Source of the DNA: Candidatus Micrarchaeia archaeon
GTDB taxonomy: Archaea; Micrarchaeota; Micrarchaeia; Micrarchaeales; CABMGC01
DNA length: 64,000 nt
Direction of reading: 5' to 3'
NCBI GenBank assembly: GCA_049964835.1
Contig: JBMFWW010000001.1
Location: forward strand, 131,589 to 195,588
Each line of letters begins with the position of its first letter. Positions within the stretch are counted from its first letter, which is position 1. The position numbers and the translations under genes were made by a program. Below are positions 9,127-49,920 of this stretch, piece by piece. A model generated the notes under the pieces. It had not been told where the DNA came from and did not search any database. It saw nothing but the letters and a program-made list of their open reading frames with translations.

Positions 9127-9413
9127 TGGAAGTAACAAGAGCCTACAAATACAGAATCTATCCCGATGCCAAAAGGCAGAGAGAGATAGACGAAAGGCTG
9201 TGGCTTGAAGACAGAGTATATCACTGCAACGTCTGTGGACTGACAATAGATAGGGACATAAACGCGTCAATAAACATATTGCATAGAGCAACTACCCTCG
9301 GGCAGAGGGGAAGTTACGCTCAGGGAGAGAGTGTAAGACCTCAACAGGAGGCTGTTCTCAAGGAACTGAGAACCGATAAAATACATCCTTTGCAGGATGC
9401 AGTGGTTGCATGA
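9126..9413 (+). pseudogene. tnpB: TnpB (OrfB_IS605) internal-deletion derivative, 95 aa
   Basis: MEVTRAYKYRIYPDAKRQREID is a TnpB N-terminus. It is joined directly to the C-terminal zinc-finger/RuvC-III region HCNVCGLTIDRDINASINIL. The central RuvC-I/II region of about 300 aa is missing. Confidence 0.65.
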
Positions 9414-9785
9414 ATGTAAAGGAAGCCCACGCCGTTTACGGGTGGGAGGATGTCACTTTACAGATGTTTACTATCTGAGATGGATTTAAATGGTGAGGTA
9501 ACATCATTAGTCATTTGAGGTGTTTTTTGGAGTGTAGGTTATAGTAGTAGTAATATTGGGCCTCAAACCGAAGAAATAGTAAGAAATTATATTAAATATT
9601 TGGACATTGGAATAAATGAAATTGACATTACTCTTTTATTTAAAAAGGATACTTAAAACTTGGCTTTGTTGATTTAGTCAGAGTTTATCAACAAAATTGG
9701 ACTTTTCAACAAAGCCTTAAAATTTTAGCTTTAGAAGAAGGCCATTGATAATGGTGTAAATTTTTACATTTTTGCGTAAAATAGC

Positions 9786-10247
9786 TCAGCTTTCTCGAAG
9801 TATTTTATTTATATCAGATCCTTTATCGTATTTAAGTGCAACAATTCCAAAGATTATAAGATAAAGCCATGCAAAAAGTGATATTCCTCTTCCATAACTG
9901 TACTGTAAGAATTGAATGTGACCAATTAAAAGCTGGGTTGTTATTCCGGGCATTATTATAAATGCGGATGAAAAAAATATTACTAAATTAAGTATGCTGT
10001 AAAATACAGCAGCTCCATACCACATTCTTAATCCTAATAAATATATGACACTTATTATTAAATAGAATGCAACTTCTGTTTCAAGCCAAAACGTAATAGT
10101 ATTTGTTGTTCCAGGACTGGCAAATAGATGACTGGCCACATTGAGCAAAGCAAAAAAAGCTAGCGAAAATCTTAACCAATGAATTTTATTGTGATCTATT
10201 CCATGCCAAAAACTATTTTTATTCATTGTCTTCATAAAATGTGACAC
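9786..10247 (-). CDS. small integral membrane protein (4 predicted TM helices)
   Basis: 153 aa, four long hydrophobic segments, no recognisable family. Confidence 0.5.
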   Translation of the reverse strand: MSHFMKTMNKNSFWHGIDHNKIHWLRFSLAFFALLNVASHLFASPGTTNTITFWLETEVAFYLIISVIYLLGLRMWYGAAVFYSILNLVIFFSSAFIIMPGITTQLLIGHIQFLQYSYGRGISLFAWLYLIIFGIVALKYDKGSDINKILRES

Positions 10248-10429
10248 CTATGAGAACTAGTCTGTAAAACTGATTTCCAATTAAGAAAATCAACCTTTAC
10301 AAACATCCATTTATTAATATATTATTCTTATCACTATTTTATATATCTTTTCATTACAATTTATTTGTAGTAAATTGGCAAATTAAATATCTTTGTGTTT
10401 ATAGTATTTTGTGGAGTTCCTCTTCTCTT

Positions 10430-10719
10430 TTTGTCGTCGTAAGACGATTTACCGTTAGACTCTTGAGCAACAGATACAACGAATGTATCGGTCACCTGCC
10501 AGGAGAACGAAAACATGGAAATATATTATTCAAAGAATAAAATACTAGAAGTTTGGGCAGCAGCCCTGGTCATAGTCCAGAAATATGGGCAATAGAAAGG
10601 AGTTTTTCAAGATTAAAAGGAGTTTTTGGTCTTTCAAAAATAAATTTGTTGGAATAAATAAGATCGCAATTCATGTATATTCTTGCCTTATTGCATACCT
10701 CATGAAATACGTGATGTAA
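10430..10719 (+). pseudogene. DDE transposase (IS4/IS5 superfamily) C-terminal remnant, frameshifted
   Basis: Translation gives IWAIERSFSRLKGVFGLSK, then a frameshift, then NKFVGINKIAIHVYSCLIAYLMKYVM*. This is the typical transposase C-terminal block (E-R-x-F-x-x-L-K). The region is GC-richer than its surroundings. Confidence 0.5.
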
Positions 10720-10825
10720 TGTGTTTGTATTTGACGAGGTGAGTGAATGAAAATGTCAAGTTCCTAATTCAAGGCATACAAAAAGTATTTTATAATTATA
10801 AGTTAAATATATTTTAAGTGATTAT

Positions 10826-11233
10826 ATGATAACAGGAATAGAAGTAAGTAAGGTTGAAGCGAAAAGAGAAAATCTCGAACCTATATCTAATATGAAGTTT
10901 AATATAAACTTCGATAATGTTGAAATAAAACAAGAATCAGTTAGTGTAGGTTTCACATTTGCTGCTGTTTATGAAACTGGTTCTGGAAATAAGCAAACAA
11001 AGGTTGGCGAGTTAGTAATTTCAGGAAAGGTTATGTCAAAGGAGTCAAAGAAAGATCTAGATGAGATAGATAGTACATGGAAAAATAAAAAGACATTGCC
11101 GTTAAGATTCGCAGAAGATGTAATAAATCTCGTAAACTTTGAATGCGGCTCAAGAGGAACATTAATTGCATACTCTATAGGTTTTGCTGCGCCATTGCCA
11201 ATATCCAGAGCAAAGCTTGAAGAAACAAAGTAA
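10826..11233 (+). CDS. hypothetical protein
   Basis: 135-aa ORF directly upstream of polB in the same orientation. No motif I can name with confidence. Confidence 0.45.
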   Translation: MITGIEVSKVEAKRENLEPISNMKFNINFDNVEIKQESVSVGFTFAAVYETGSGNKQTKVGELVISGKVMSKESKKDLDEIDSTWKNKKTLPLRFAEDVINLVNFECGSRGTLIAYSIGFAAPLPISRAKLEETK

Positions 11234-18655: not shown

Positions 18656-21600
18656 TCATCTTCTTTTGTCTTTATTCTTCTTTCTTCTTTTTGCAATTAT
18701 GAAGAAAATAATTATCACTATTATTATGATAAATATTGTTACATAACCTGTAGGTTTTGATATAGCAGAGATAGTTGCTGAGATAGCATTGTTTAAAGAA
18801 CCAGACTCAATCTTCAAAGAGGTCTGATTAGTTGTGTTTATTTGTTGCTGTGGTGTTGTATTTTGAGAAGTAGTTGTTGTGTTTACTACTTGGGTTGTGG
18901 TTGTTGCAAATGCAGTTGTTTTTGTTGTTGATTGTACTATGGTTGTACTTGTTGCTGTGCTCTGAGCTGTGGTTGTAATTTTGGTCGTTGTCGTACTTTT
19001 AGTTGTGGTAGTGTTTTGTGAAGTCGTATTTTTGTAATCAACAATCAATTCCTGCGAGTATGTATTTGTACTTTTTCCACATGCGTAATTAAATCCTAGT
19101 CCTTGCACATCATTTGTATAAATATAAATTGTATTTGCCATAGAAACTGTGCATGCAAATGTAACAGAAATTCCAGGTGATGATGTTGTATAAGTCGCAG
19201 GCAATTGGTTTTGGTAATAATTTTGAGATCCTACTGTAAATACAGGTTCTGCAGAGTTAAAGTCTGAGTTAATATTATCCGAAAGCTTGAAAGAATATGA
19301 TGGATTTCCTCCGCCATTATTGGGTTGTTGTATTTGTGGGATGGTTATTTTTGCTGTAGTTGTGTTAAGGGTAGTAGGATATGAATCTGTTGCGTATAAT
19401 TTAAAGTAATACGTTCCTGTTAATGTGTTTGCTGTTGTAATAAAGTTTGCAGATAATGATTGTGCTTCTCCAGATATTATTCCTACTTTAAGAAGAGTAT
19501 TTGCTTCAATTGCATTTGCTGCTGTTGGTATCGGATTAGTTACATTAGATACATACCATTGGTAAGTATAAGGGCTTAATCCACCAACTAATCCATTATC
19601 ATTTATAACTGCACTCTGTCCTAATGTAATACTCTGTGAAATTGGGTATAATTGCGATATTTCTGGCGGTGTATATTGTGTTGGAGTAGGTAATATATTA
19701 TTTGGCGGAGGTACACGTACTCTCGCAAATTCTATAAATGAATTCGTAGGTGTGCTTCCTGTGTTACCAAAGTCATCTCCTATATATAGGGTATTTGATG
19801 AAGAAAGTGGATTAATATTCTCTATTCCATTATATCCACCAGAATATAATGTTGGCGATATATAACCAGAAAAAGATGTGCCTGAAACTCCTGAAAAGTA
19901 TAAAGAATAATAATAAGGGACTGTAGAAACAGAACCTTGTTGATCATTTCCGTTTGAATATGATCCGGAGTTTTTGTATGCCAATGCGAATGCACTTCCT
20001 GACCATCCGGATTGTACTCCTTCTGCATTATTAGCACCAGTTGAGGTATTCCAATTTTGCAGATCTATACTTGCAAGATTTACGCCATTGTAATTATTTA
20101 TAACCGCAGCATCAAGCGTAGCAGGTTGTGTAGGTGTACCTTTATTATATGCAAAAGAAAAGCAAGGGAAACTACAGGATCCTACTATATTTATGGCATT
20201 TACTGTGTCTGAACCTATTCTGACTCCTGTTGCTTGAGAAATAGTAAATCCAGTCCCTACTGTAAAGTCAGACAAAGGAGTATCTCCATTGAAATATATT
20301 TCAAATACATTAGCTCCATTATCATACTGGGCATAATTTTGACTTAGATATGGCGCTTCTCCCGTGAAATTACCATCTATAAGCCCATTAGAAGTACTTC
20401 CAAATCCTAAATAAATTGTTGCGTGTGTTGGAGTGCCTATATCCGGTCCAAGAAATGTATTCGAAGGAGGCGTTTTAACCCAAAACACCACATTATTAGT
20501 TTTATATAATTGATTTGAAGGCGATTGTTGATCAATAATGTTTCCTTCAAGCCATGAATATGCTATTGTTCCATTGGAGAAATAAAATACGGTATTGTTT
20601 AGTGTGTTGCTTTCAATAGCGGTGTTCTGCAAAGCATTAAAGTTTATCATTACTGGAGTGTTTGCCGAAAAACCTTCAGGTTGGTCATTAGTAAGTGCAT
20701 AGTCTATCGAAGTTAATATGGGGACTCTTTTAATAACTACCGTATTCGAGATGACGCTTGAAGTTGTATCATTTGTATAAAGTGTGCTATATCCTAAAGG
20801 TAGTGCGTTGTATGGTAATGTTATTGTTGTTGTCCCAGAAGCAAGAACATTTCCATTGGAATTTTCTATTTCACAAGTATCTCCACTTGCACATGTTGCA
20901 GTTATAAGAGCATTGTCTGATGCAGAACCTACCACAACATCTATTGCATCAGATGTGATTGTATTTGATAATGTTATGCTTGGTATTGGGTAGATAAGAG
21001 ATGCCATTATACCATTTGGCGGATAAGCACGAGTGCGAACCCATTGAAAAAATGAGTTATCATTACTATCATATAAAGTAATATAAGGATATGAAGCACC
21101 TTCACTTCCTATTTGTGTGTAATTTTCATAAAAATAGCTATTAGAAGATGTTGAAAATAAAGAAAATACATAAAATCTATTCAAAGAAGCTGTGCCGGTT
21201 GCGGTTTTGCTAGAACTATATTGAAATTCATTTCCTGCGGTATTAATTCCTACGCCTGTATAACCATTTATTGTGGAGGGATCACTTCCAGTAGCTAGTA
21301 ATATGCCCCATGTTACAGATCCAGATGAAAGTTCTTGCGCATCTGTTTCAATAATTATTGGATTTGTAATGACTGTGTTATATCCTAATGGCCAGTCTGG
21401 CGGAGCACTGGGAGCTTCCATAGTAATTCCATTATCTTGAGTTACTGTTGGTTGATAATTTACCCAACCATTAGGTAAAACATTTCCAGCAAAATTCCAA
21501 TAATTCATAAATACATTCGCACCATTATCATATTCTGCATAACTTGGTGAAAGCTGTGGTGCTTCACCTGTGGTTTGAGCATTAAATAGACTGTTTGATG

Positions 21601-21994
21601 TTGGTGCAAAACCCATATAAATTGTATTTGTGGTATTTGCAGCTAAGAAGGCGTTTGCCGGAATTATTCTAAGCCAATAAATTGTATTTGTAGATGTATA
21701 TAAGCTATTAGAATTTGCTTCATTTGTCACATTTCCTTCAAGCCAGCTTGGTATTATCGTTCCATTTGAATAGAAGAACTCTATGTTTTGAAGATTTGGT
21801 GCTTCATAATTTTTATACTCTAAAGAATTTACGGATATCATTATCTGTGAGTTATAAGTAAATGCTGAACTTTGTGCGTTGTATAAATGCAATGCTTTAT
21901 AGCTAATAATAGAGTTCGGAGTAGAAACTGCTCCAACTCCTGCAATTGACAGCGCAAATACAGTCATTATCAATATTGAATAGTGGTCTTTCAT
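18656..21994 (-). CDS. large S-layer-like surface glycoprotein with duplicated N-terminal module, Thr-rich stalk and C-terminal anchor
   Basis: 1112 aa. Signal peptide, then two copies of a roughly 130-aa module (F[FY]SNGTI..SWLEGN ... GEAP.LS..YA.YDNGANVF) resembling DUF2341-type lectin-like domains. A poly-Thr region, a TM helix and a KRRKKNKDKRR tail follow. Confidence 0.7.
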   Translation of the reverse strand: MKDHYSILIMTVFALSIAGVGAVSTPNSIISYKALHLYNAQSSAFTYNSQIMISVNSLEYKNYEAPNLQNIEFFYSNGTIIPSWLEGNVTNEANSNSLYTSTNTIYWLRIIPANAFLAANTTNTIYMGFAPTSNSLFNAQTTGEAPQLSPSYAEYDNGANVFMNYWNFAGNVLPNGWVNYQPTVTQDNGITMEAPSAPPDWPLGYNTVITNPIIIETDAQELSSGSVTWGILLATGSDPSTINGYTGVGINTAGNEFQYSSSKTATGTASLNRFYVFSLFSTSSNSYFYENYTQIGSEGASYPYITLYDSNDNSFFQWVRTRAYPPNGIMASLIYPIPSITLSNTITSDAIDVVVGSASDNALITATCASGDTCEIENSNGNVLASGTTTITLPYNALPLGYSTLYTNDTTSSVISNTVVIKRVPILTSIDYALTNDQPEGFSANTPVMINFNALQNTAIESNTLNNTVFYFSNGTIAYSWLEGNIIDQQSPSNQLYKTNNVVFWVKTPPSNTFLGPDIGTPTHATIYLGFGSTSNGLIDGNFTGEAPYLSQNYAQYDNGANVFEIYFNGDTPLSDFTVGTGFTISQATGVRIGSDTVNAINIVGSCSFPCFSFAYNKGTPTQPATLDAAVINNYNGVNLASIDLQNWNTSTGANNAEGVQSGWSGSAFALAYKNSGSYSNGNDQQGSVSTVPYYYSLYFSGVSGTSFSGYISPTLYSGGYNGIENINPLSSSNTLYIGDDFGNTGSTPTNSFIEFARVRVPPPNNILPTPTQYTPPEISQLYPISQSITLGQSAVINDNGLVGGLSPYTYQWYVSNVTNPIPTAANAIEANTLLKVGIISGEAQSLSANFITTANTLTGTYYFKLYATDSYPTTLNTTTAKITIPQIQQPNNGGGNPSYSFKLSDNINSDFNSAEPVFTVGSQNYYQNQLPATYTTSSPGISVTFACTVSMANTIYIYTNDVQGLGFNYACGKSTNTYSQELIVDYKNTTSQNTTTTKSTTTTKITTTAQSTATSTTIVQSTTKTTAFATTTTQVVNTTTTSQNTTPQQQINTTNQTSLKIESGSLNNAISATISAISKPTGYVTIFIIIIVIIIFFIIAKRRKKNKDKRR

Positions 21995-25471: not shown

Positions 25472-25861
25472 TTACTTAATTAAATTAAATATCAATGGTA
25501 TTACAAATATTGCAAAGAACAAATCAAGTAAAACTATTGTCGTTATAAATACATACAATCTGTTTTTTTGATTTCCAAAGTAATATACAGAGTAAAGAAC
25601 TCTTATTACTGGTGTAGCTATTAGAACCATCAAGCCTAAAACTATGTATGAGAGGCCATCAAGAGAAAATAGGCCATAAAATATATTGTCTATGTTTATA
25701 AAACTTGTATTGATTTTAGACGTATGTGATGCTATTTGATTTAGAGAATAACCTAGCCCGCCGTTTTTTGCAAACAATAATGCCATTCCAATTAATATTA
25801 GCAGTATACTTGCAACTGAGCCAATTCTTAATATATACCCTATGCTTTTATTAGCGTCCAT
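25472..25861 (-). CDS. DUF1634-like membrane protein
   Basis: 129 aa, three TM helices, immediately downstream of and abutting the TauE/SafE gene. This pairing is known. Confidence 0.55.
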   Translation of the reverse strand: MDANKSIGYILRIGSVASILLILIGMALLFAKNGGLGYSLNQIASHTSKINTSFINIDNIFYGLFSLDGLSYIVLGLMVLIATPVIRVLYSVYYFGNQKNRLYVFITTIVLLDLFFAIFVIPLIFNLIK

Positions 25862-26719
25862 TTATATAACACCAATTCCTCTTAAAATCATCTGTACTCC
25901 TAAAATCAATATGACAATAACAAATAGCTCTCTAACAAAATTATTCTTTTCTTTATTTAGAAACTTAGAGCCAAAATAACTGCCAGTAAGTACACCTATT
26001 GCTGCAGCTCCTGCTATAAAAGGCTGCATGTATCCAAACTCCCAATATATCGCAGTTCCAGCAGCTGCAGTTACACCTATCATAAAATCACTTGTAGCAG
26101 CACTAACTTTTGGAGGCAGTTTCATCATATCATCTAAACTTAACACTTTAAGTGCACCCGATCCAACTCCAAGCAGTCCAGAGATTAAACCTGCAAATAA
26201 CATTATTAATTCTGAGTACCACCATCTTACACCATAATACTTTATTCTTTTTTTGAGCTGCTCGTCATAATAGGAGCCGTTCAATTGGAAAAGTTTGGTA
26301 GTTTTATCCGGTTTTATATTGATACTTTTCTTTTTTCTCATTAATTTTTTCATTGATGGATATATGGAGAAGATAAGTACTACTCCAAAAAGTATGAATA
26401 TTACTGAAAGATCCTTTGCCTTGTAAATTTGCGTTGCTATTAATACCCCAACTATGGCTCCTATTGTCGTTCCAACCTCTAAAGACATACCTATCTTAAT
26501 ATTAGTTATTTTATCTTTAACATAGGCACTAGCCGCACCGCTAGATGTAGCTATTGACGCTATAAGACTTGCTCCAGCAGCGTAGTATATAGGTATTCCA
26601 AAACCAAGAACCAGTAGTGGTGTTAAGATTACTGCCCCTCCAAGGCCCGTAAGTGAACCAATAAGCCCGGCAGCGATTCCTCCTATAATTATTAGCAAAA
26701 AGAATAATATTGGTAGCAT
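25862..26719 (-). CDS. TauE/SafE (DUF81) family anion exporter
   Basis: 285 aa, polytopic, Gly-rich repeated halves (GLIGSLTGLGGAV ... GLLGVGSGAL). Confidence 0.8.
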   Translation of the reverse strand: MLPILFFLLIIIGGIAAGLIGSLTGLGGAVILTPLLVLGFGIPIYYAAGASLIASIATSSGAASAYVKDKITNIKIGMSLEVGTTIGAIVGVLIATQIYKAKDLSVIFILFGVVLIFSIYPSMKKLMRKKKSINIKPDKTTKLFQLNGSYYDEQLKKRIKYYGVRWWYSELIMLFAGLISGLLGVGSGALKVLSLDDMMKLPPKVSAATSDFMIGVTAAAGTAIYWEFGYMQPFIAGAAAIGVLTGSYFGSKFLNKEKNNFVRELFVIVILILGVQMILRGIGVI

Positions 26720-26758
26720 TACGATCTAACTTTAATATGCTGATAATTAATAAATAAA

Positions 26759-27070
26759 CTACCTATTTTTATTTTCTTCAAGTATCTCCCCAAAACTTCT
26801 ACAAAAATACTCTGTAGTTTTATGTACCTCCTTTATTCCTATGCTAGTGAGTTTATAAATAATTATTTTATTTGTTTTTTTCCCTATTATTAATCCATTA
26901 TCACTAAGTTCTTTAAGTGCAGGATAAATTGTACTCGGCTTTGGCTTTTCTCCTCTTCTTTTACCTATTTCTTCAGCTATCTCATCCCCATACATTTCTT
27001 TTTTTGAGAGTAACCAAAGTATCTGGAAGGATAGCAATCCTTTCATGTTGCACCCTTTCGAAGTTTTCAT
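26759..27070 (-). CDS. PadR-family transcriptional regulator
   Basis: Winged-helix pattern ILWLLSKKEMYGDEIAEEI....G.KPKPSTIYPALKELSDNGLI. Confidence 0.75.
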   Translation of the reverse strand: MKTSKGCNMKGLLSFQILWLLSKKEMYGDEIAEEIGKRRGEKPKPSTIYPALKELSDNGLIIGKKTNKIIIYKLTSIGIKEVHKTTEYFCRSFGEILEENKNR

Positions 27071-27195: not shown

Positions 27196-27276
27196 ATGAA
27201 TGGAAATGGATGCTGTTGTTACGGCACAGATTTGAATGGAACGAGAAGCTTCCTTACAAAAGAAGGGCTTTGCTAA
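27196..27276 (+). pseudogene. 5' part of a small DUF5320-like gene, interrupted by the IS-derived element
   Basis: MNGNGCCCYGTDLNGTRSFLTKE, then 3 element-derived codons and a stop. AAGGTG lies 6 nt upstream of the ATG. The frame continues at 29661 once the element is removed. Confidence 0.65.
27256..27265. repeat. target-site duplication, left copy (ACAAAAGAAG)
   Basis: Identical 10-mer at 29651-29660, directly abutting the opposite inverted-repeat terminus. Confidence 0.7.
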
Positions 27277-27330
27277 ATAATTATCATTTTTGCATGAATA
27301 TTTTAGCACACTCTACTATTTATTAGCAGA
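27267..27330. repeat. 64-bp direct repeat, copy 1 (IS end including the transposase stop codon)
   Basis: Matches 29567-29630 at 63 of 64 positions (the mismatch is at 27301/29601). The offset is exactly 2300 bp. Confidence 0.9.
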
Positions 27331-27700
27331 CCAGGTTTTATCTTCAATTCATACATAGAATTTATTAGGACGGTTATGTTGTAAGCTATAAGTTTACACA
27401 ATACTTCGTTGGTCTGCGATACAAATTTCTTGCTTTTTAGGCAGTCACCAAACTTCACCTTTATTGCAAAGAATGTGGTTTCTACATTGCTTCTTGTATG
27501 GTAGTGGTTGGTATTTATTACCTCTTTAAAGGGATTTACTATTACGTAAAATCCATGAAGATAAAATTAACGTCTACAAAATAAGGACTCACATCTAAAA
27601 GCAGATAGATGAACTGGCGTAGATTGTACTATGACATTTTTACAATTTACTGCTTTGTATATCATCGGCGAATTTGCCAATTTGCAGGCATCACGCTCAG
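27303..27700 (-). pseudogene. DDE transposase remnant (C-terminal about 87 aa in frame, upstream part frameshifted, N-terminal half absent)
   Basis: FYLHGFYVIVNPFKEVINTNHYHTRSNVETTFFAIKVKFGDCLKSKKFVSQTNEVLCKLIAYNITVLINSMYELKIKPGLLINSRVC*. It contains Y-x2-R-x3-E-x6-K (YHTRSNVETTFFAIK). Confidence 0.7.
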
Positions 27701-27771
27701 GGCTTATTCAAATTACTATCAAATGATGCTAAGGAAAATTTTGCAGTAAAGGCCTTTCTAATTTTTATATT

Positions 27772-28209
27772 TTATATGCTTAGAAAGAACCATTTTTCTG
27801 GGGAGTTAATAAAGCCTATTTCTTTGTAAAATCTTTGTACAGTATACATATGTGAGCCAACAGCTACATAAACACTGCGAATATTTCGTTGCTTAAGAAT
27901 GGAAATTACCTTGTTTATTAATTGTGTACCAACCTTTCTCTTCCTATACTTTTCGCTGACAAATAGCTCTTCTATATATGTCACTCCCTTATTTTTAATA
28001 TGTTCATAATACACGGCCCAGACATAGCCTATTAATTTTTTGCCTGAAAGAGCAACAAAAACTATCTGGCCCGATTTATGCATATGTAATGAGAGATTTG
28101 ACTTATAAAATTCCTGTTCTTCGTCGCCTTTGTATAGCTCCCGAAAGTAGTGCGTTATCTCCTTCAAGTCTTTGTTTCTAGCCTTTCTTATAACGATTTG
28201 CTCCATCAT
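27772..28209 (-). CDS. GNAT-family N-acetyltransferase
   Basis: 145 aa. Typical beta4-alpha3 acetyl-CoA segment IEELFVSEKYRKRKVGTQLINKV. Starts 5 nt after the rSAM stop. Confidence 0.8.
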   Translation of the reverse strand: MMEQIVIRKARNKDLKEITHYFRELYKGDEEQEFYKSNLSLHMHKSGQIVFVALSGKKLIGYVWAVYYEHIKNKGVTYIEELFVSEKYRKRKVGTQLINKVISILKQRNIRSVYVAVGSHMYTVQRFYKEIGFINSPEKWFFLSI

Positions 28210-28214
28210 AAAAC

Positions 28215-29387
28215 CTAAGTTTCTAATTGATTTTTAATCTTATTATAGATATGTTCGTATATTTTGTAATTGGAGCATTCAGCAGAGTTAGTAGTTTTAG
28301 AATTAAGCAGGTACCTATCATAAGCACACCCGCCTTTACATTTATCATACCATTTACAACTTAGGCATACTTTCAGACTTTCTATCTGCTTCTGTAATAA
28401 TCTTCTATAGCCCTCTGTTGCGAATATCCCGCTTATAGACTCTATATTGTTTATATTAGCAATTTCGCTTTCACTTACAATTGTGTTACCTGTTCTTGGG
28501 AATTTATCACATGGGTATATGCTGCCATTTGGATATAAAGTAAATGTTGTATTTGCACAGATTCCTTGACCTATCTGGCAGATTTTAGAAGAATGCCCCA
28601 AAATTGTTCGCAAAATATCTTCAAATAGTAATATATGAATACTTGGATCATCTTTTTCAAACCAGATATCAAACAGTTCATTAACAAATTTAACATAGTT
28701 TTCAGTGGAATAAAGATAAGAAGTTAATTGTTCCTCAGTGTTCGAAAAAACAGGTTCTTGTGGTAGAAAATCAAACGTTTTTAGGTTGTTATTAACAAAA
28801 AAGTCAAATAACCTTTTCGGACCTATGCGAAAGGTATCATTGGTAATTACGGCGAGAGCACCAAATGGGATCTCGTATTTTTTAAGTAAATTTATGCCTC
28901 TAATTGTTTGTTCATATGAATCTCCGACTATTGCTGCTCTTTGTTTATTTTGTATTTCTTTTGGACCGTCTATACTTACGCCTACTTGAATTTTTTCCTC
29001 TTTAAAAAACTTCACCAATTCTTCATTAATCAGTGTCGCATTTGTTTGTATGCTGTTCTTAATTTTTATTTTTCTCTGTGAGAATAATTTTTTTTGAACA
29101 TTTACGATCTTTTTAAAAAAAGATAAACTCATCAATAAAGGCTCTCCACCGTGCCATATGAAATCAACACTACCTAAGTCGTCGTATTCCGATACTTTAG
29201 TGAAGAGTTCATTGATCAGTGAAAAATCCATATATTCAGTCGTAATCAGACCTCGAACTAGCGGACCTGAAACTCCACAGTATGAGCACCTTAAATTACA
29301 GTTGTTAGTTAATTTGACAATTATAGCTATGCCTAGATTACGATTATTAAAAAGAGCTTTATTAGACTCCAAGTAACTCTCATTCAA
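28215..29387 (-). CDS. radical SAM enzyme with full SPASM domain (anSME/peptide-maturase type)
   Basis: CNLRCSYC (Cx3Cx2C), GGEPLL, and the 7-Cys SPASM signature CANTTFTLYPNGSIYPC ... CLSCKWYDKCKGGC ... C. Confidence 0.85.
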   Translation of the reverse strand: MNESYLESNKALFNNRNLGIAIIVKLTNNCNLRCSYCGVSGPLVRGLITTEYMDFSLINELFTKVSEYDDLGSVDFIWHGGEPLLMSLSFFKKIVNVQKKLFSQRKIKIKNSIQTNATLINEELVKFFKEEKIQVGVSIDGPKEIQNKQRAAIVGDSYEQTIRGINLLKKYEIPFGALAVITNDTFRIGPKRLFDFFVNNNLKTFDFLPQEPVFSNTEEQLTSYLYSTENYVKFVNELFDIWFEKDDPSIHILLFEDILRTILGHSSKICQIGQGICANTTFTLYPNGSIYPCDKFPRTGNTIVSESEIANINNIESISGIFATEGYRRLLQKQIESLKVCLSCKWYDKCKGGCAYDRYLLNSKTTNSAECSNYKIYEHIYNKIKNQLET

Positions 29388-29399
29388 ATAGACCTACCT

Positions 29400-29513
29400 T
29401 TAGAGTGATTTGCTATGAAGATTATGCCCCCTCCATATATTTAATGAATCGCTGTTTTCTTCACGTAGAAGAGACATTAATATTTTACTTTTATTTGTTT
29501 TTTCTTTTTCCAT
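29400..29513 (-). CDS. candidate precursor peptide (37 aa)
   Basis: My own translation: MEKEKTNKSKILMSLLREENSDSLNIWRGHNLHSKSL. AAGGTGG lies 5 nt upstream of the ATG and TTTAAATA about 35 nt upstream. The stop is 12 nt before the rSAM start. Confidence 0.4.
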   Translation of the reverse strand: MEKEKTNKSKILMSLLREENSDSLNIWRGHNLHSKSL

Positions 29514-29566
29514 GGACCCACCTTATATTAATTTGGATAAAATCTATTTAAATCTTTTGGTTAATA

Positions 29567-29650
29567 GCTTTGCTAAATAATTATCATTTTTGCATGAATA
29601 CTTTAGCACACTCTACTATTTATTAGCAGAATGAGGTTTATTAGCAAAGC
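29567..29650. repeat. 84-bp MITE-like unit (64-bp repeat copy 2 plus 20-bp opposite IS end)
   Basis: Begins GCTTTGCTAA and ends TTAGCAAAGC. The first 64 bp duplicate 27267-27330. Confidence 0.7.
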
Positions 29651-36040: not shown

Positions 36041-38071
36041 TTGTTATGTTCACTTGTTAGAAAGGATTACTTTATGAACTTGCATAATAAGTTTTTTTTA
36101 ATGATTGCGTTTATTGCACTTACATCAATGCCTGGAATAGTTTTTGGTGGTTACTGGTTTCAGTTTGGCGCAAGAGGTGGCCAATATACAACATTAAATA
36201 ATGGTGCAAGCGTAAATATACAAACTGTAGTAAATCAAAACATAAAGTCCGGTTCTTCTGGCTACTGGATAGGGGAAAACCTTGCAAATGGAGCCTTTCT
36301 ACAAATTGGTTATTTGATAGAGAACCAAAGTGGAGTATATCCATCTTTTTGTAATGTTTCAGGCTGTGGAGGTTACCAAAATTTAACTAAAGGAAATGCG
36401 GAATGGTTCTATGAGTACTTTCCACCATCATTTTCTCAATCCTTTTTAGGTGCTATAGGGCCAGATGGTTCTGCAGGTAAAAATGGAACAATTAATAATT
36501 ACCGTTTTTATGTTAATGGAACTATTTGGAATTTTGTATTCGATGGAAGAATAGTGGGCAATATAACTTTGGGCTCAAACAATTCCGGTCAAAATATACC
36601 TCTTGCTTTTGGAGAGCTAGCCAATACATCAAACAGTAATACATTCTTGAAACCTGTTATTTTCAGCAACTTATCATTTTATAAAAACGGAGTTTTTCTT
36701 CAAGTTCCTCATGGATATACTTACATTGGTTATGGTGAGGGAAGCCAAACAGATTTAGCCAACCCTTACGGTATTCAAGAAATAGGTAATAGAGTAAATT
36801 ACTTTGAGGTAGGTTCGGACTTAATACAATATCCCGATAATACAAAGCTTTGGACACTTGGTTATTCATTAAAAACAATTTCTAATTATGGTAACTTTAA
36901 TTCTATACTAGGTTATGTGGCATACTCACAAGCAAATATAAATGTGCCAAATGAAATATATCTTGGGAATAATACTCGTGTTCTTTTTGTAGGTTGGGAT
37001 GGTACAGGCACAGGGTCATATACTGGTTTTTCTAATTATTCAAATGTTTACCTTGATCAAAATATAACAGAACAAGCTACATGGGAGAAACAGTATTATG
37101 TTACTATCTCATCAAAATATGGCAATGTAACTGGTTCTGGTTGGTACTCCCCAAATCAAACCTTAATTTATAAATTAAGTTCTAATATCTTCTATTTGAA
37201 TAATACTGCAAGGGTCATATTCGCAGGTTGGAATATAGGTGGTAAAAATCTGACCGGTATTACAAAAATAGCCGGCCCCATAAACATAAGCCCAATATGG
37301 AAAAACCAGTATTATATAAAAATTAATTCTACAATAAATGGCACAAATGAAAGTGGTTGGTATTATAAAAACAGTACTATAAATTTATCATTGAAAAAAC
37401 CAGTTCTAGAAAATACGCCATTTTATAGACTTTCATTTTATTCATGGAACAACGGCGCAAAGACCCAAAATCTAACTCTGAGGATATCTAGTCCACTAAC
37501 AATATATCCCATTTACAAAAAGGAGTACCTTACCAAGTTTAATGCAATTAATGTTTATGGTAATCCGATAAAAATAAATAACATATATTTAGACAATAAC
37601 ATTACTAACGACACTACCTATCTATATTCAGGAATTAAGTATACAATAAATAAAATTATTTACGATGGGGCAAGTATCTCTCTAAATAAATCAATATCAG
37701 TTAATTCAACTTCTTCTATAAATATAACTATGCCTTTATATAATCTAAGTCTAAAAACAACAGATCTGTTTGGAATTCCAGTAAATGCACTTGTAAATAT
37801 AAATTTCTATAATGGAACTTCAATTTCAGAATATACTGGCTCTTCTGGAACTTTGCTTTTCAAAAATGTTCCATACGGTTTTGCTACAGGTACTGTTTAT
37901 TATGGACAAATAAGTACTACCATAAATGCAGCTAATGGAGTACCAGTAAAAAGTATTTTTATCTCACTTCTAAATATAGTTATATTTATTCTAGTAATAG
38001 TAATTGCAGGAATCATTTTTGTATTAGCATCAAGAAAAATGCATAAGAAAAATGAAGAACTACATATCTAA
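36041..38071 (+). CDS. surface glycoprotein with repeated G-W-Y beta modules and a C-terminal anchor
   Basis: 676 aa. Signal/TM at the N-terminus (probable start at M12). At least three modules of the form YY[VI].I.S..G...GSGWY......I....(x)...R..F.GW. Many sequons. C-terminal TM plus SRKMHKK. Confidence 0.6.
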   Translation: MLCSLVRKDYFMNLHNKFFLMIAFIALTSMPGIVFGGYWFQFGARGGQYTTLNNGASVNIQTVVNQNIKSGSSGYWIGENLANGAFLQIGYLIENQSGVYPSFCNVSGCGGYQNLTKGNAEWFYEYFPPSFSQSFLGAIGPDGSAGKNGTINNYRFYVNGTIWNFVFDGRIVGNITLGSNNSGQNIPLAFGELANTSNSNTFLKPVIFSNLSFYKNGVFLQVPHGYTYIGYGEGSQTDLANPYGIQEIGNRVNYFEVGSDLIQYPDNTKLWTLGYSLKTISNYGNFNSILGYVAYSQANINVPNEIYLGNNTRVLFVGWDGTGTGSYTGFSNYSNVYLDQNITEQATWEKQYYVTISSKYGNVTGSGWYSPNQTLIYKLSSNIFYLNNTARVIFAGWNIGGKNLTGITKIAGPINISPIWKNQYYIKINSTINGTNESGWYYKNSTINLSLKKPVLENTPFYRLSFYSWNNGAKTQNLTLRISSPLTIYPIYKKEYLTKFNAINVYGNPIKINNIYLDNNITNDTTYLYSGIKYTINKIIYDGASISLNKSISVNSTSSINITMPLYNLSLKTTDLFGIPVNALVNINFYNGTSISEYTGSSGTLLFKNVPYGFATGTVYYGQISTTINAANGVPVKSIFISLLNIVIFILVIVIAGIIFVLASRKMHKKNEELHI

Positions 38072-41932: not shown

Positions 41933-44419
41933 ATGAAATATAAAGTTAAAGATAGTGATGACGAGAAAAATAAAGTTTATCAAGAAGACATTAAAATTTT
42001 AAAAGATTTTGAATCTAAAATAAACAAAGATAAAATTCTATGCTTTTTGAAAGATATCGGTAGCGAAGCTTCGAAAGCATATATAGATGTTATTAAGGTT
42101 AAAAATGAAAAAACATTCTTTTTAGATGAAAAGTTAATGACTAAAGAAATGGCTAGGTTCCTTAAAGCTTTGGGGCCCCATTCTTATAGCTATTTAATAT
42201 CTATGTCAAGTTTTGAAGATAGAGAAAGATCACTTTCAGCAATGACCTCCCCCAGCCTTATAAATAATAAAGAAATTATAAATCTTGTAAATGTACTTGG
42301 AAGCAGCGCAACAAATTACTTTCATCATATATCAAAAACAGGTAATGTAGAAGTTTATACAAATCCTAAAGTAGTCAATCTTGCATATTCAATAAATGTT
42401 GATTTATTTTCGTATTATCTAATACTTTTAGAGTCAGAAAAATATCATAAAACAATGCTATCAGATAACTTCCAATACTTTCTTAAAAATTTAGAAACAG
42501 AAGTAGCAATTTCTTATTTGCATACACTTAATATAAATCCAAACAATGAAAATCTTCTATCCGATTTGATCATAGATAAAAAAAATATAAACTTTTTAAA
42601 CAATTTAAAAGTAGATTCTAACCTATTTTTTAATACCGCATTATATCAAAATCCCCAATTATTTATCAGCGAGAAATCATGTAATTTTATAAACAAATTA
42701 AATAAAAAAATTCAAGCAGGGTACCTCAAATCTTTAATATCTTTCAAATCAACTTTTTTGCTTTCTGAAGATGTACAAAATGAAACCATTGCTAATTTTG
42801 CAAACAAATTAGAGGAAACATCCTCTTTTTTCTTTGATTTTCTGTCCTATAAAAAAATAGGTAAAAAGCTTCTAGATCCTAATTTTTTAACAGAGGAAAA
42901 TTCAATTTTCATTAAGCAACTTGGTAATTATGAAGTTAAACAAAAAAATCTGGCTAGCTGTTATTTATACACAGTAGCTAATTCAAGTAATCCAAAATTA
43001 ATTATTAAAAAATCAACACGTGATTTTATACTCTCTTTAGATAAAGGTTTAGTAGAACCTTATTTATCAGCAATATTTATGACTAACTGTCCAGAGATAC
43101 TGACATCTAAAAGTTTTATAAATTTTACTAATAGTATAAGCAATAATACAAAAAAAGATAATTTTTTTAATTTAATACAAAACCAAACAAAAGAAAACCT
43201 TAGTATGTTTTTAGAGAATATAAAACGACTTAAAGACACAAAGATATTATCTGAACAAAGGCAAATAGCCATAGCGTTCTTTAAAAGTAGCTTAATAAAT
43301 ATCGTTACTGATAATAAATCTTTAGATTTTGTTTTTTCATATCTTTCTTCATTATCCCTTGATGAACTTTCACTACCAAAGCCTAAAATTGACAATATTA
43401 GTTTTTATGGCGATTTATTAAATGACCTATTGAATAAGAAATACAAATTAGATATAACTCTAAACCATTCGCAGTTAAGAAACTTATTTTCTGTACCTGA
43501 ATATTTAAGGTATGATTTATTAAAGGGCTTTAAAGAACATAACAAAATATCTGAAAGAATTTATCAACCAGAACGATTAAATCTTATAAAAATTTCACAA
43601 TTAGAAAAAAACGAAAGGATAAAAATTCTACTCAATTCAATTATAAAATATAATTTAAATGAGCCTAAAAATGAATATTCAGAATTTTTACTTTCGCAAA
43701 AACAAGTTAAAGTCGCAATAAACTTTTTTTCTCCTAAAAAATTTTTAGGCTTGAAAGAAAACATCAAAAAATTAATAGAAATTGAAGGATATACTAAGGC
43801 ATTTGAGATTTTAGAAGAGAGATATGGTAAAAATGAATTATTAAAAGGATTTTTTCAAATTCCAAAAATTACTGATTCGGAATTAGAAAAATATGGAAAA
43901 AACTCAACATTAAAATCATATTTAACTAAGAACATGCTTGATTTTGATGGGCGAGTCTTTCAAGCTTGCATATTTCTACCTAATGGAAAATATAATAAAT
44001 TAATATTAAACTACATAAAAGATCCGGCAATTATAATAAAATACGAAAAAGACGATCAAATAATTTCTGCTGCGATATGTCTTTTTCATAAAAATGAAAG
44101 AATATTTTTTGTTAATTCTGTAGAAGGTAAAAATACAGAACAAGTGCCATTATTATTTTATACTATCTACGAGGATTTACTAGAAAGAGCAAAAGAGCTT
44201 GGAGCTTTAAAAATTATATTCCTTTTAAATCCTTTAAATACATTTCCCAAAAAATTTATTGCTTTGATGAAAGATTTAGGTTTAGAATACAAACAAAGAA
44301 TACCCTATAATTTTAAGTATTTTAAAGGTGTAACTGACGTATCAACAAGTTTTTTCGAAGGTTACATAAAAACTTTTAGTGAAATAACTAATGATTTATA
44401 TACCTCTAAGCGGAATTAG
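41933..44419 (+). CDS. large hypothetical protein with at least 10 degenerate helical repeats and a possible GNAT-like C-terminal domain
   Basis: 828 aa. A recurring roughly 35-40-aa unit has the core F[LI]K.LG......Y[LI]... (FLKDIGSEASKAYIDVI, FLKALGPHSYSYLISM, LVNVLGSSATNYFHHI, FLKNLETEVAISYLHTL, FINKLNKKIQAGYLKSLI, and others). Confidence 0.5.
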   Translation: MKYKVKDSDDEKNKVYQEDIKILKDFESKINKDKILCFLKDIGSEASKAYIDVIKVKNEKTFFLDEKLMTKEMARFLKALGPHSYSYLISMSSFEDRERSLSAMTSPSLINNKEIINLVNVLGSSATNYFHHISKTGNVEVYTNPKVVNLAYSINVDLFSYYLILLESEKYHKTMLSDNFQYFLKNLETEVAISYLHTLNINPNNENLLSDLIIDKKNINFLNNLKVDSNLFFNTALYQNPQLFISEKSCNFINKLNKKIQAGYLKSLISFKSTFLLSEDVQNETIANFANKLEETSSFFFDFLSYKKIGKKLLDPNFLTEENSIFIKQLGNYEVKQKNLASCYLYTVANSSNPKLIIKKSTRDFILSLDKGLVEPYLSAIFMTNCPEILTSKSFINFTNSISNNTKKDNFFNLIQNQTKENLSMFLENIKRLKDTKILSEQRQIAIAFFKSSLINIVTDNKSLDFVFSYLSSLSLDELSLPKPKIDNISFYGDLLNDLLNKKYKLDITLNHSQLRNLFSVPEYLRYDLLKGFKEHNKISERIYQPERLNLIKISQLEKNERIKILLNSIIKYNLNEPKNEYSEFLLSQKQVKVAINFFSPKKFLGLKENIKKLIEIEGYTKAFEILEERYGKNELLKGFFQIPKITDSELEKYGKNSTLKSYLTKNMLDFDGRVFQACIFLPNGKYNKLILNYIKDPAIIIKYEKDDQIISAAICLFHKNERIFFVNSVEGKNTEQVPLLFYTIYEDLLERAKELGALKIIFLLNPLNTFPKKFIALMKDLGLEYKQRIPYNFKYFKGVTDVSTSFFEGYIKTFSEITNDLYTSKRN

Positions 44420-47050: not shown

Positions 47051-47084
47051 TTTTGAAATCTTAAAAGATTTCAAGTTTAGGATT

Positions 47085-49915: not shown

Positions 49916-49920
49916 TAATT

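What the first reader, a model, noticed from the sequence alone, without database searches (positions are those of the whole stretch)
27772..29566. Compact peptide / radical SAM-SPASM / GNAT cassette: candidate archaeal RiPP-type system
Three minus-strand genes are separated by gaps of only 12 and 5 nt.
- First gene: a 37-aa ORF (29513-29400, MEKEKTNKSKILMSLLREENSDSLNIWRGHNLHSKSL). AAGGTGG lies 5 nt upstream of its ATG, and a TTTAAATA box lies about 35 nt upstream.
- Second gene: a 390-aa radical SAM enzyme with CNLRCSYC and a complete 7-Cys SPASM signature (C-x15-C containing G-x4-C, then CLSCKWYDKCKGGC, then a distal C).
- Third gene: a 145-aa GNAT.
SPASM enzymes (AlbA, StrB, PqqE, MftC, anSME) act on peptide or protein substrates, and GNATs N-acetylate RiPPs such as microviridin and goadsporin. 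The peptide has no Cys, which excludes sactipeptide or ranthipeptide thioether chemistry. Its C-terminal WRGHNLHSK stretch offers Trp, His and Lys, as used in Lys-Trp (streptide-like) or three-residue cyclophane crosslinks. No sulfatase gene, the other classic SPASM substrate, is nearby. Radical-SAM RiPPs are essentially uncharacterised in archaea, and this one sits inside a mobile element.
Basis: partly seen in the sequence, partly recalled or inferred. Interest (0 to 1): 0.8.

Follow-up and report, generated by a model that had tools for sequence, protein, structure and literature searches.

The report
Micrarchaeal WRG-peptide radical-SAM cassette
A tiny symbiotic archaeon (Micrarchaeota) carries a three-gene cassette in which a 37-residue peptide with an invariant Trp-Arg-Gly motif is almost certainly cross-linked by a neighbouring radical-SAM enzyme and then probably acetylated; this is a previously undescribed family of modified peptides found only in this archaeal lineage.

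Summary
Three intact minus-strand genes (37-aa ORF, 390-aa radical SAM/SPASM enzyme, 145-aa GNAT) lie 12 and 5 nt apart.

The enzyme has a small, exclusive clade of about 14 relatives (43-58% identity), all from Candidatus Micrarchaeota (DPANN) MAGs or unbinned metagenome contigs. All 15 distinct loci recovered carry a small ORF beside the enzyme. These ORFs share a leader motif (S/N)(K/R)I(L/V)xxL and an invariant core W-R-G followed by His (13 of 15) or Arg. Arg and Ser codons switch family while the residue is kept, so selection acts on the protein.

The enzyme reaches no curated family cut-off. It scores 235 bits on the anSME model (cut-off 349), 219 on DynA, 210 on DarW and 198 on DarE. 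Its fold matches anSME and the triceptide synthase ChlB about equally well. No sulfatase was found among the larger window ORFs scanned.

The GNAT follows the enzyme in 8 of 15 loci. Elsewhere a PEP-synthase/rifampin-phosphotransferase-like enzyme or a pentapeptide-repeat protein takes its place.

The cassette is bracketed by a direct repeat (64 nt near-identical within a 75-nt match) derived from a decayed IS5-like transposase. It is not an intact mobile element.

Best reading: a new, archaea-restricted rSAM RiPP family with a Trp-centred cross-link. The exact chemistry is unknown.

The parts
29545..29559 (-). Archaeal promoter-like BRE/TATA element. TTTAAATA is at 29545-29552 and a purine-rich CAAAAGA lies just upstream.
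   Evidence: Read directly. No transcript data are available. The spacing would put the transcription start only a few nt before the ATG.
29518..29524 (-). Shine-Dalgarno-like AAGGTGG, 4 nt before the peptide ATG.
   Evidence: Read directly.
29400..29513 (-). Precursor peptide gene (37 aa): MEKEKTNKSKILMSLLREENSDSLNIWRGHNLHSKSL. The leader is roughly residues 1-26 (29436-29513) and holds the conserved SKIL..LL motif. The core is W27-L37 (29403-29435) and holds the invariant W-R-G followed by H.
   Evidence: ORF. Homologous ORFs lie beside every close rSAM homologue. Alignment A3 gives the invariant residues I11, W27, R28 and G29. Third-position and codon-family changes keep Arg and Ser.
28215..29387 (-). 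Radical SAM/SPASM peptide maturase (390 aa, TTG start). The CX3CX2C motif is encoded at 29277-29300. The eight auxiliary-cluster cysteines (C270 to C371) are encoded at 28275-28580. There is no N-terminal RRE domain.
   Evidence: Pfam, NCBIfam, family alignment, PDB sequence search, AF2 model with pLDDT 81, fold search and NJ clade.
27772..28209 (-). GNAT N-acetyltransferase (145 aa), 5 nt after the rSAM stop codon. It is a probable tailoring or self-protection enzyme.
   Evidence: Pfam. Orthologues (43-86% identity) lie directly behind, or overlap, the rSAM gene in L003, L171, L011, L012 and L008. A further 144-aa GNAT follows the rSAM in L176. L006 has a divergent GNAT in the same position. 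P0121 is 100% identical and named as from Candidatus Micrarchaeia.
29567..29641 (+). Upstream copy of the direct repeat. The core 29567-29630 is 64 nt with one mismatch. It is a solo remnant of the 3' end of an IS.
27267..27341 (+). Downstream copy of the direct repeat. It overlaps the last codons of the transposase remnant.
27306..27566 (-). Decayed C-terminal fragment (about 87 aa) of an IS5-like DDE transposase, downstream of the GNAT.
   Evidence: Translation. It matches Pfam DDE_Tnp_1 positions 155-200 of 200 with E 0.0014, which is below the gathering score. A 56%-identical remnant lies downstream of the GNAT in L012.

Best explanation
The cassette is a minimal RiPP pathway that belongs to a family confined to Micrarchaeota. 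The steps below are marked as shown or inferred.

1. The 37-aa product is a precursor peptide. It has a Lys-rich leader with a short conserved helix-type motif, (S/N)(K/R)I(L/V)xxLL. Sixteen to nineteen residues further on lies the core W-R-G-H-x-L-x-S (shown by comparison of 15 loci).

2. The RRE-less radical SAM/SPASM enzyme binds the leader directly, as the structurally similar ChlB does (inferred).

3. The enzyme cleaves SAM at its CX3CX2C cluster. It abstracts a hydrogen from an sp3 carbon inside the invariant W-R-G-(H/R) stretch, and the resulting radical adds to the Trp27 indole. The two fully Cys-ligated auxiliary clusters take up the electron. The result is a Trp-centred macrocyclic cross-link with a mass change of -2 Da (inferred).

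4. In the window's peptide the in-register H-N-L and H-S-K triplets could give one or two further His-based three-residue cyclophanes (inferred).

5. The GNAT, which is probably translationally coupled, then acetylates the product at a core Lys or at the new N-terminus. This either tailors the peptide or neutralises it inside the producer (inferred).

6. The leader is removed, and any export carried out, by housekeeping functions, as happens with minimal darobactin clusters (inferred).

In short, gene integrity, domain content, conservation of the peptide and its adjacency to the enzyme, and lineage restriction are shown. The peptide being the substrate, the type and site of the cross-link, the GNAT's target and the biological role are inferred.
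For: - The peptide is adjacent to the enzyme in 15 of 15 distinct loci of an exclusive 14-protein clade.
- I11, W27, R28 and G29 are invariant. Position +3 is His in the 12 aligned WRGH sequences, and also in L170, which was not aligned. It is Arg in the other 2.
- Coding-level conservation is visible. Arg is AGG versus CGT and Ser is AGC versus TCA, and differences are enriched at third positions.
- No WRG(H/R) peptide lies beside the rSAM gene in any of about 150 more distant rSAM loci.
- The enzyme has all three cluster-binding Cys sets invariant.
- Its best curated HMM hits are anSME 235, DynA 219, DarW 210, DarE 198, YhhB 167 and GrrM 153 bits, which are mostly peptide cross-linkers.
- The fold matches anSMEcpe (TM 0.79) and the triceptide synthase ChlB in complex with its leader (TM 0.77).
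- The sister clade sits behind ORFs with tandem W-x-R repeats.
- There are precedents for a cyclophane or ether RiPP paired with an N-acetyltransferase. One is the class IV daropeptide cluster, which has an N-acetyltransferase in place of transporters, and darA plus darE alone are sufficient for production (PMC9055067). Another is NCBIfam's HaaN model.
- Trp-Arg and His-Lys rSAM cross-links are established chemistry (PMC11851443, PMC11499958).
- GNAT genes overlap or abut the rSAM gene in 8 loci.
Against: - There is no biochemical or expression evidence.
- The invariant triplet W-R-G has Gly at the third position. Gly lacks the C-beta used in canonical triceptide links, so the site and type of cross-link cannot be read from precedent.
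- The best single HMM and PDB hit is a protein maturase (anSME), not a RiPP enzyme.
- The cassette has no protease, exporter or RRE.
- The GNAT is replaced by other enzymes in about half of the loci, and its homologues also occur alone. Its link to the peptide is therefore weaker than the rSAM's.
- The family is small and comes only from MAGs and unbinned metagenome contigs. In L003 the cassette is truncated, and in L014 the rSAM is frameshifted.
Confidence: 0.72

Rival explanations
1. The enzyme modifies the peptide but does not make a Trp cyclophane. It would perform another radical chemistry on the W-R-G-(H/R) stretch. Candidates are C-alpha chemistry on Gly29, an ether link (DarE/DarW-like, with oxygen inserted), epimerisation, or oxidation or hydroxylation of Arg or His.
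For: Gly at the third position cannot give the canonical aromatic-to-C-beta link. The closest curated models include ether-forming DarW and DarE and the oxidising anSME. The catalytic-base Asp of anSME aligns with the invariant D294 in the C-D motif. SPASM enzymes are known to perform many different reactions (PMC11851443 introduction).
Against: An invariant Trp next to an sp3-rich partner is the hallmark of cyclophane and daropeptide substrates. The sister clade has W-x-R repeats. The ether case is only a variant of the main explanation.
Confidence: 0.2
2. The product is not a secreted bioactive peptide. It would be a peptide-derived cofactor or an intracellular or intercellular signal, analogous to PQQ or mycofactocin. 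A host-dependent DPANN cell would use it, and the GNAT or phosphotransferase would complete its maturation.
For: The cassette has no exporter, protease or immunity gene. The invariant part is very short (W-R-G-H), as in cofactor precursors. The genomes are small and reduced; L014 comes from an 853-kb chromosome.
Against: Distribution is patchy even within Micrarchaeota. The genomic context differs in every locus, often next to integrases, IS605 OrfB, PIN or AbiEii genes. Decayed copies exist. This is the pattern of an accessory trait, not of a cofactor. No candidate cofactor-dependent enzyme is linked to the cassette.
Confidence: 0.12
3. The rSAM is an anSME-type protein maturase that acts on a sulfatase or another protein encoded elsewhere. 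The small ORF would be unrelated, for example a regulatory upstream ORF.
For: The best HMM hit is TIGR03942 at 235 bits. The best PDB hit is anSMEcpe, E 2e-47 and 30% identity. The best fold match is also anSMEcpe.
Against: The score is well below the model's cut-off of 349. Scores on DynA, DarW and DarE are nearly as high. The peptide co-occurs 15 of 15 times with an invariant core that lacks the C/S-x-P-x-R sulfatase motif. No sulfatase domain was found among the window ORFs scanned. anSMEcpe is the most distant sequence in the comparison.
Confidence: 0.04
4. The GNAT, like the PEP-synthase/rifampin-phosphotransferase-like enzyme and the pentapeptide-repeat protein that replace it in relatives, is a self-protection device rather than a biosynthetic tailoring enzyme. 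On this reading the peptide is a toxin or antibiotic, and the partner gene neutralises it or shields its target inside the producer.
For: All three alternative partners belong to families best known from antibiotic resistance. The GNAT hits AAC and streptothricin acetyltransferase models. The second partner hits RIF_Ptrans_rph at E 1.7e-37 to 4e-47. The third hits Qnr-type pentapeptide models. It is easier to explain the swapping of unrelated enzymes in one slot by a shared protective role than by shared chemistry.
Against: All hits are far below the family cut-offs. N-acetyltransferases are genuine tailoring enzymes in cyclophane RiPPs, as with HaaN and the class IV daropeptides (PMC9055067). 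GNAT homologues also occur without the cassette.
Confidence: 0.3

Closest known systems
Daropeptides and dynobactin (DarA/DarE, DarW, DynA)
   Same: The maturase is an RRE-less rSAM/SPASM enzyme of the anSME-like branch, and CNLRCSYC here compares with CNLRCTYC in DarE. The precursor is short and has a Trp-initiated C-terminal core. The window's H-S-K-S-L tail resembles the W-S-K-S-F of darobactin. A two-gene minimal cluster suffices. Class IV daropeptide clusters carry an N-acetyltransferase and no transporter (PMC9055067). HMM scores are 198-219 bits.
   Different: The scores are far below the cut-offs of 450-650. The invariant core is W-R-G-(H/R), not W-x-W-x-K. The H-S-K tail is not conserved in the family. 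The host is a DPANN archaeon without an outer membrane or BamA, whereas the known producers are proteobacteria. The chemistry is untested.
Triceptides (three-residue cyclophane RiPPs: XyeB, GrrM/OscB, YhhB, HaaB, HtkB, ChlB)
   Same: The enzyme architecture is the same and the fold matches ChlB with TM 0.77. Aromatic residues are spaced every third position (W27, H30, H33). The H-x-L/V and H-x-K triplets resemble the HAA, HNR and HTK motifs (PMC11499958). A GNAT tailoring enzyme, HaaN, is known in this class.
   Different: The only invariant triplet has Gly at X3, which cannot form the defining aromatic-to-C-beta bond. Two family members end at W-R-G-R-S with no His triplet. All triceptide HMMs score below their cut-offs.
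Anaerobic sulfatase-maturing enzyme (anSME)
   Same: It is the best single sequence, HMM and structure match. It shares the eight-Cys auxiliary cluster ligation and the C-D motif.
   Different: The score is below the family cut-off. The substrate appears to be a dedicated small peptide lacking the sulfatase motif. No sulfatase was found in the window ORFs scanned.
WprB (Trp-C5 to Arg-C-gamma cross-link on WPR motifs)
   Same: Trp and Arg lie together in the conserved motif. The WprB study notes archaeal members with a single WxR/K motif (PMC11851443).
   Different: WprB belongs to the StrB/WgkB branch, lacks the Aux I cysteines (it has a twitch domain) and needs the chaperone WprC. Here all eight auxiliary cysteines are present and there is no WprC-like gene. 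The motif order is W-R-G, not W-x-R.

Membership tests
Radical SAM superfamily | CX3CX2C motif binding the SAM-cleaving 4Fe-4S cluster, and a partial TIM-barrel core | tested here: met
   C30/C34/C37 are invariant. Pfam PF04055 scores 70.9 bits against a cut-off of 29.5. The AF2 model aligns to rSAM structures.
SPASM subfamily | C-terminal seven-Cys motif, CX9-15GX4C ... CX2CX5CX3C ... C, for two auxiliary clusters | tested here: met
   C277, G288-x4-C293, C341/C344/C350/C354 and C371 are present, plus C270. All are invariant. PF13186 scores 24.7 bits against a cut-off of 21.5.
RiPP pathway (generic) | A small gene-encoded precursor with leader and core, genetically linked to its modifying enzyme across relatives | tested here: met
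   The peptide is adjacent in 15 of 15 loci. The alignment shows a leader motif and an invariant core.
RiPP pathway (generic) | The peptide is actually modified by the enzyme | not testable with these tools
   This needs co-expression and mass spectrometry.
anSME (TIGR03942) | Score at or above the curated cut-off | tested here: not met
   234.9 bits against a cut-off of 349.45. The PRK13758 model gives 201.6 against 441.
anSME (TIGR03942) | A Cys/Ser-type sulfatase substrate is encoded in the genome | tested here: inconclusive
   No sulfatase domain was found in the flanking ORFs or in most window ORFs above 350 aa. One ORF of 425 aa (61943-63220) and many smaller ORFs were not scanned, and the rest of the genome is not available.
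Darobactin/daropeptide maturases (DarE NF038005, DarW NF041300) and DynA (NF041298) | Score at or above the curated cut-off | tested here: not met
   DarE 197.8 against 650, DarW 210.1 against 650, DynA 219.2 against 450.
Darobactin/daropeptide | Precursor core W-x-W/F-x-K/R with an aromatic-aliphatic ether cross-link | tested here: not met
   The core is W-R-G-(H/R). There is no second aromatic residue at +2. The ether link itself cannot be tested here.
Triceptides (3-CyFE) | Omega1-X2-X3 motif with a link from the aromatic ring to C-beta of X3 | tested here: inconclusive
   The invariant W-R-G has Gly (no C-beta) at X3. H-x-L/V is present in 12 of 14 aligned peptides but absent from the W-R-G-R-S peptides. 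The bond itself cannot be tested.
Triceptides (XyeB, GrrM/OscB, YhhB, FxsB, AmcB models) | Score at or above the curated cut-off | tested here: not met
   XyeB 116 against 450, GrrM/OscB 153 against 310, YhhB 167 against 445, FxsB 109 against 370, AmcB 137 against 425.
Streptide (StrB) type Lys-Trp cross-link | Conserved Lys and Trp in a KxxxW-type core, and an rSAM with an N-terminal RRE | tested here: not met
   Lys after the Trp is not conserved. The enzyme has only about 22 residues before the core domain, and no StrB-type model appears among the 25 best NCBIfam hits shown.
WprB type | Twitch domain lacking the Aux I cysteines, and a WprC chaperone gene | tested here: not met
   All eight auxiliary cysteines are present. 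No extra small gene is conserved in the cassette. The criteria are taken from PMC11851443.
HaaN cyclophane-RiPP N-acetyltransferase (NF041716) | Score at or above the curated cut-off | tested here: not met
   18.9 bits against a cut-off of 250. The generic GNAT fold is met: PF00583 scores 65.7 bits.
Insertion sequence or composite transposon | An intact transposase gene with terminal inverted repeats bounding the unit | tested here: not met
   Only an 87-aa C-terminal DDE_Tnp_1 fragment is present, with two direct (not inverted) copies of its 3' end. No other copy exists in the window.

The most novel reading that the evidence does not exclude
A DPANN-specific toxin or host-interaction peptide carrying a cross-link type not yet described. 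The link would be Trp joined to Gly C-alpha, to the adjacent Arg side chain, or to the +3 His/Arg, because the canonical X3 C-beta is missing. Its variable neighbour gene (GNAT, rifampin-phosphotransferase-like enzyme or pentapeptide-repeat protein) would act as interchangeable self-immunity. This would be the first functional natural-product pathway in ultra-small symbiotic archaea and a possible mediator of the Micrarchaeota-host relationship.
Probability: 0.2. Interest if true: 0.8.

Novelty: new variant of a known kind. Interest (0 to 1): 0.6.

Why it matters
Radical-SAM cross-linked peptides such as darobactin, dynobactin and the triceptides are a fast-growing source of new antibiotic scaffolds and new enzyme chemistry. 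In the literature I could search, nearly all studied examples are bacterial.

This study defines a compact, clearly delimited family in Micrarchaeota, which are ultra-small, host-dependent archaea with reduced genomes. It gives the family 14 natural precursor variants, an invariant W-R-G motif that does not fit the known motif rules, and naturally swapped partner enzymes.

The minimal two- or three-gene size makes heterologous testing straightforward. A positive result would add a new cross-link motif. It would also give a first handle on what chemical tools DPANN archaea use on their hosts or competitors.

Tried and rejected
- **Rfam:** searches of the whole window at gathering thresholds, and of the cassette flanks and the ORF-poor stretch 8200-10900 at E up to 0.1, found no RNA family that explains the non-coding flanks.
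- **Peptide search:** phmmer of the 37-aa peptide against 1.84 billion representatives found only one true relative, P0130. Most of these small ORFs are not gene-called. That relative does sit in front of an rSAM-GNAT pair.
- **Metagenome scan:** the rSAM profile added only one new close locus, L090. The family is rare.
- **WprB supplement:** the supplementary tables that list the archaeal WxR/K precursors are not held, so overlap with this family could not be checked.
- **'Intact mobile element':** rejected, because there are no further copies of the repeat and no full transposase in the window.
- **GNAT as an exclusive pathway marker:** rejected, because homologues at 43-45% identity stand alone in L173 and L175.
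- **Sactipeptide or ranthipeptide chemistry:** rejected, because no Cys is conserved in the peptides.
- **Peptide-enzyme complex model:** not attempted. The structure tool takes single chains only and restricts input to window sequences and database hits.
Full report
**Observation**

- The 37-aa ORF is at 29400-29513.
- The 390-aa ORF with a TTG start is at 28215-29387.
- The 145-aa ORF is at 27772-28209.
- The gaps between them are 12 and 5 nt.

Pfam assigns Radical_SAM and SPASM to the middle protein and GNAT to the last. The small ORF matches no Pfam or NCBIfam model.

The CNLRCSYC motif and the SPASM cysteines are present, and an eighth cysteine, C270, would complete the ligation of the first auxiliary cluster as in anSME. 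All of these cysteines are invariant in the family alignment.

Reading one search gives two small corrections. AAGGTGG lies 4 nt before the peptide ATG. The TTTAAATA box, preceded by a purine-rich BRE-like stretch, ends 31 nt before the ATG.

**Organism and setting**

The window carries an archaeal 23S rRNA gene and two tRNA genes. It also carries ribosomal-protein-sized ORFs next to the cassette and housekeeping genes such as a class I tRNA synthetase (IleRS-like), family B DNA polymerase, Trm1 and iPGM.

The GNAT is 100% identical to a protein that NCBI names as from a Candidatus Micrarchaeia MAG, on a 216-kb contig. All named genomes holding close relatives of the rSAM are Candidatus Micrarchaeota MAGs, apart from one record titled only 'uncultured archaeon'. 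The host is therefore a DPANN archaeon, and the cassette lies in the chromosome among core genes.

**Is the small ORF real?**

The rSAM has a small set of close relatives (43-58% identity, plus a 93%-identical fragment). Identity then drops sharply to 37% or less. In a rough NJ tree the 14 family proteins form an exclusive clade.

I recovered the DNA around these relatives from genome and metagenome collections. Each of the 15 distinct loci has a small ORF next to the rSAM gene. In 14 loci it lies directly upstream on the same strand. In L172 it is divergent.

The 14 different peptide sequences align with four invariant residues: I11 in a leader motif (S/N)(K/R)I(L/V)xxL(L), and W27, R28 and G29. 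The next residue is His in 12 sequences and Arg in 2. L170, which was not in the alignment, also has His.

Selection acts on the protein sequence. Between the window and L001 the Arg codon is AGG versus CGT and a Ser codon is AGC versus TCA, and differences are enriched at third positions.

No WRG(H/R) peptide lies beside the rSAM gene in any of about 150 more distant rSAM loci. An exhaustive phmmer search with the peptide found one further relative. That relative lies in front of an rSAM-GNAT pair.

The small ORF is therefore a conserved gene, genetically tied to this enzyme clade.

**What is the enzyme?**

No curated family claims it.

| NCBIfam model | Score (bits) | Cut-off (bits) |
|---|---|---|
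| anSME (TIGR03942) | 235 | 349 |
| DynA | 219 | 450 |
| DarW | 210 | 650 |
| DarE | 198 | 650 |
| YhhB | 167 | 445 |
| GrrM/OscB | 153 | 310 |

Ten relatives and neighbours tested also reach no cut-off.

The closest solved structure by sequence is anSMEcpe (E 2e-47, about 30% identity), followed by the triceptide synthase ChlB. An AF2 model (pLDDT 81, pTM 0.83) superposes about equally on anSMEcpe (TM 0.79) and on ChlB bound to its precursor's leader (TM 0.77).

There is no N-terminal RRE. The catalytic core starts about 22 residues into the protein.

The sister clade in the NJ tree contains enzymes from Larkinella and Paracoccaceae. Those genes sit behind 150-190-aa ORFs carrying tandem W-x-R-(I/F) repeats such as NLRIWFRIWVRFWFRII. 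These look like Trp-Arg cyclophane-type substrates.

anSMEcpe is farther from the window enzyme than any of the 117 homologues compared. No sulfatase domain was found in the flanking ORFs or in most of the window's larger ORFs. The peptide also lacks the sulfatase C/S-x-P-x-R motif.

The refutation condition, 'clusters firmly with sulfatase maturases', is therefore not met.

**Likely mechanism**

By analogy with DarE, DynA, the triceptide synthases and WprB (PMC9055067, PMC11499958, PMC11851443), I infer the following.
1. The enzyme binds the leader directly.
2. It abstracts a hydrogen from an sp3 carbon within W-R-G-(H/R).
3. It joins that carbon to the Trp27 indole, with a mass change of -2 Da.

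The exact bond cannot be predicted. The invariant third residue is Gly, which lacks the C-beta used in all triceptides. The candidate partners are the Arg28 side chain, Gly29 C-alpha, or C-beta of the +3 His or Arg.

In the window's peptide, aromatic residues recur every third position (W27, H30, H33). The H-x-(L/V) triplet is present in 12 of 14 peptides. H-S-K resembles both the HTK motif of HtkB and the W-S-K of darobactin. One or two additional His cyclophanes are therefore plausible. They cannot be the defining chemistry, because two family members end at W-R-G-R-S.

**Partner genes**

A GNAT follows the rSAM gene in 8 of 15 loci, often overlapping it or only 0-5 nt away. Orthologues are 43-86% identical. 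L006 has a divergent GNAT in the same slot.

In five loci the slot is taken by a 641-659-aa protein with PPDK_N and PEP-utilizers domains. It resembles PEP synthase and rifampin phosphotransferase.

In the W-R-G-R-S loci a pentapeptide-repeat protein follows the rSAM. In L004 the same kinase-like enzyme lies beyond it.

GNAT homologues at 43-45% identity also occur without the rSAM. The core system is therefore peptide plus rSAM, and the GNAT is an accessory.

There are precedents for a tailoring role. One is the class IV daropeptide cluster, which has an N-acetyltransferase and no transporter, and darA plus darE alone suffice for darobactin production (PMC9055067). Another is the HaaN model.

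All three alternative partners belong to resistance-type families. That keeps a self-protection role open.

One weak hint concerns the GNAT's target. All eight GNAT-linked peptides have a Lys after WRGH, whereas four of the eight others I tallied have none.

**Mobility**

The cassette is bracketed by a direct repeat at 27267-27341 and 29567-29641. The central 64 nt differ at one position.

The repeat is the 3' end of a decayed IS5-like DDE transposase gene. An 87-aa remnant of that gene lies downstream of the GNAT. A related remnant lies in the same position in L012.

No intact transposase and no further repeat copy exist in the window.

In the 91%-identical relative L003, homology covers only window 27679-28858. 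The peptide gene and the 5' half of the rSAM gene are missing there.

The flanking genes differ in every locus and often include integrases, IS605 OrfB, PIN or AbiEii genes. The cassette thus behaves as an accessory, IS-associated gene set, but it is not an intact mobile element.

**Comparison and novelty**

The system works like the anSME-branch RiPP maturase systems (daropeptides, dynobactin, triceptides) but fails the membership tests for each of them.

The literature I could search mentions DPANN RiPP clusters only as antiSMASH counts (PMC12153355). One note records archaeal members of the unrelated WprB cluster (PMC11851443). I found no description of a W-R-G precursor family.

I rate it a new variant of a known kind. 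It is a clearly delimited, archaea-restricted rSAM RiPP family whose core motif falls outside the known rules.

Interest is moderate to high (0.6). New rSAM RiPP families are found regularly, so the finding is not revolutionary. It does offer a very small and directly testable system, in a lineage where no natural-product chemistry has been characterised.

Noticed in passing
window 47065-49922 (-): A complete archaeal 23S rRNA gene stands alone. No 16S or 5S rRNA gene is detected anywhere in the 64-kb window, so the rRNA genes appear unlinked. Several listed ORFs inside it (for example 47093-47512) are spurious.
   Followed up: partly
window 8913-8968; L011:2153-2207: A 57-nt stretch is 88% identical between the window and a distantly related Micrarchaeota contig. 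It lies inside an ORF-poor stretch (about 8255-9785). No Rfam family matches it, and its nature is unknown.
   Followed up: partly
L001:7230-9155, L002:7222-9147, L170:2387-4366, L090:1636-3627, L004:6824-8758: In relatives the GNAT slot is occupied by a 641-659-aa PPDK_N plus PEP-utilizers protein. It resembles PEP synthase and rifampin phosphotransferase and has an uncharacterised C-terminal domain of about 240 aa. It may be a peptide phosphotransferase or an inactivating enzyme.
   Followed up: partly
L004:6248-6823, L013:5288-5692: A pentapeptide-repeat protein follows the rSAM gene in the W-R-G-R-S subtype. In L004 its start overlaps the rSAM stop codon. It has weak Qnr, HetL and Alr5209 hits. 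Such proteins are target-protection factors in some peptide-antibiotic clusters.
   Followed up: partly
L018-L022, L025-L028 (about 3400-3930); L016, L017, L023: The sister clade of rSAM enzymes (Larkinella, Paracoccaceae, Caldilineaceae, Bathyarchaeia and others) lies behind 150-190-aa ORFs with tandem W-x-R-(I/F) repeats or with Trp every fourth residue. This looks like an uncharacterised family of large precursors.
   Followed up: no
L172:1250-1380 (-) and 2797-3783 (+): In this higher-GC member the WRGH peptide gene is divergent from the rSAM gene. A second, different radical SAM gene follows the first.
   Followed up: partly
L003:5690-6022; L014:3971-5133: These are decayed copies. L003 lacks the peptide gene and the 5' half of the rSAM gene, and has an N-run nearby. 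In L014 the rSAM is split into two frames. The cassette is evidently being lost in some lineages, or the assemblies are imperfect.
   Followed up: partly
window 18656-21994 (-), 36041-38071, 41933-44419, 59547-61946: These are large ORFs (368-1112 aa) with no significant Pfam domain. The 1112-aa protein has only weak C-terminal Stevor/Rifin-like hits, probably from a membrane-anchor region. They are candidate DPANN surface or host-interaction proteins.
   Followed up: no
window 25472-27070 (-): A PadR-family regulator, a TauE/SafE-type exporter and a DUF1634 protein form a small same-strand group just downstream of the IS remnant. I found no evidence linking the exporter to the peptide, because the group is not conserved next to the cassette in other loci.
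   Followed up: partly
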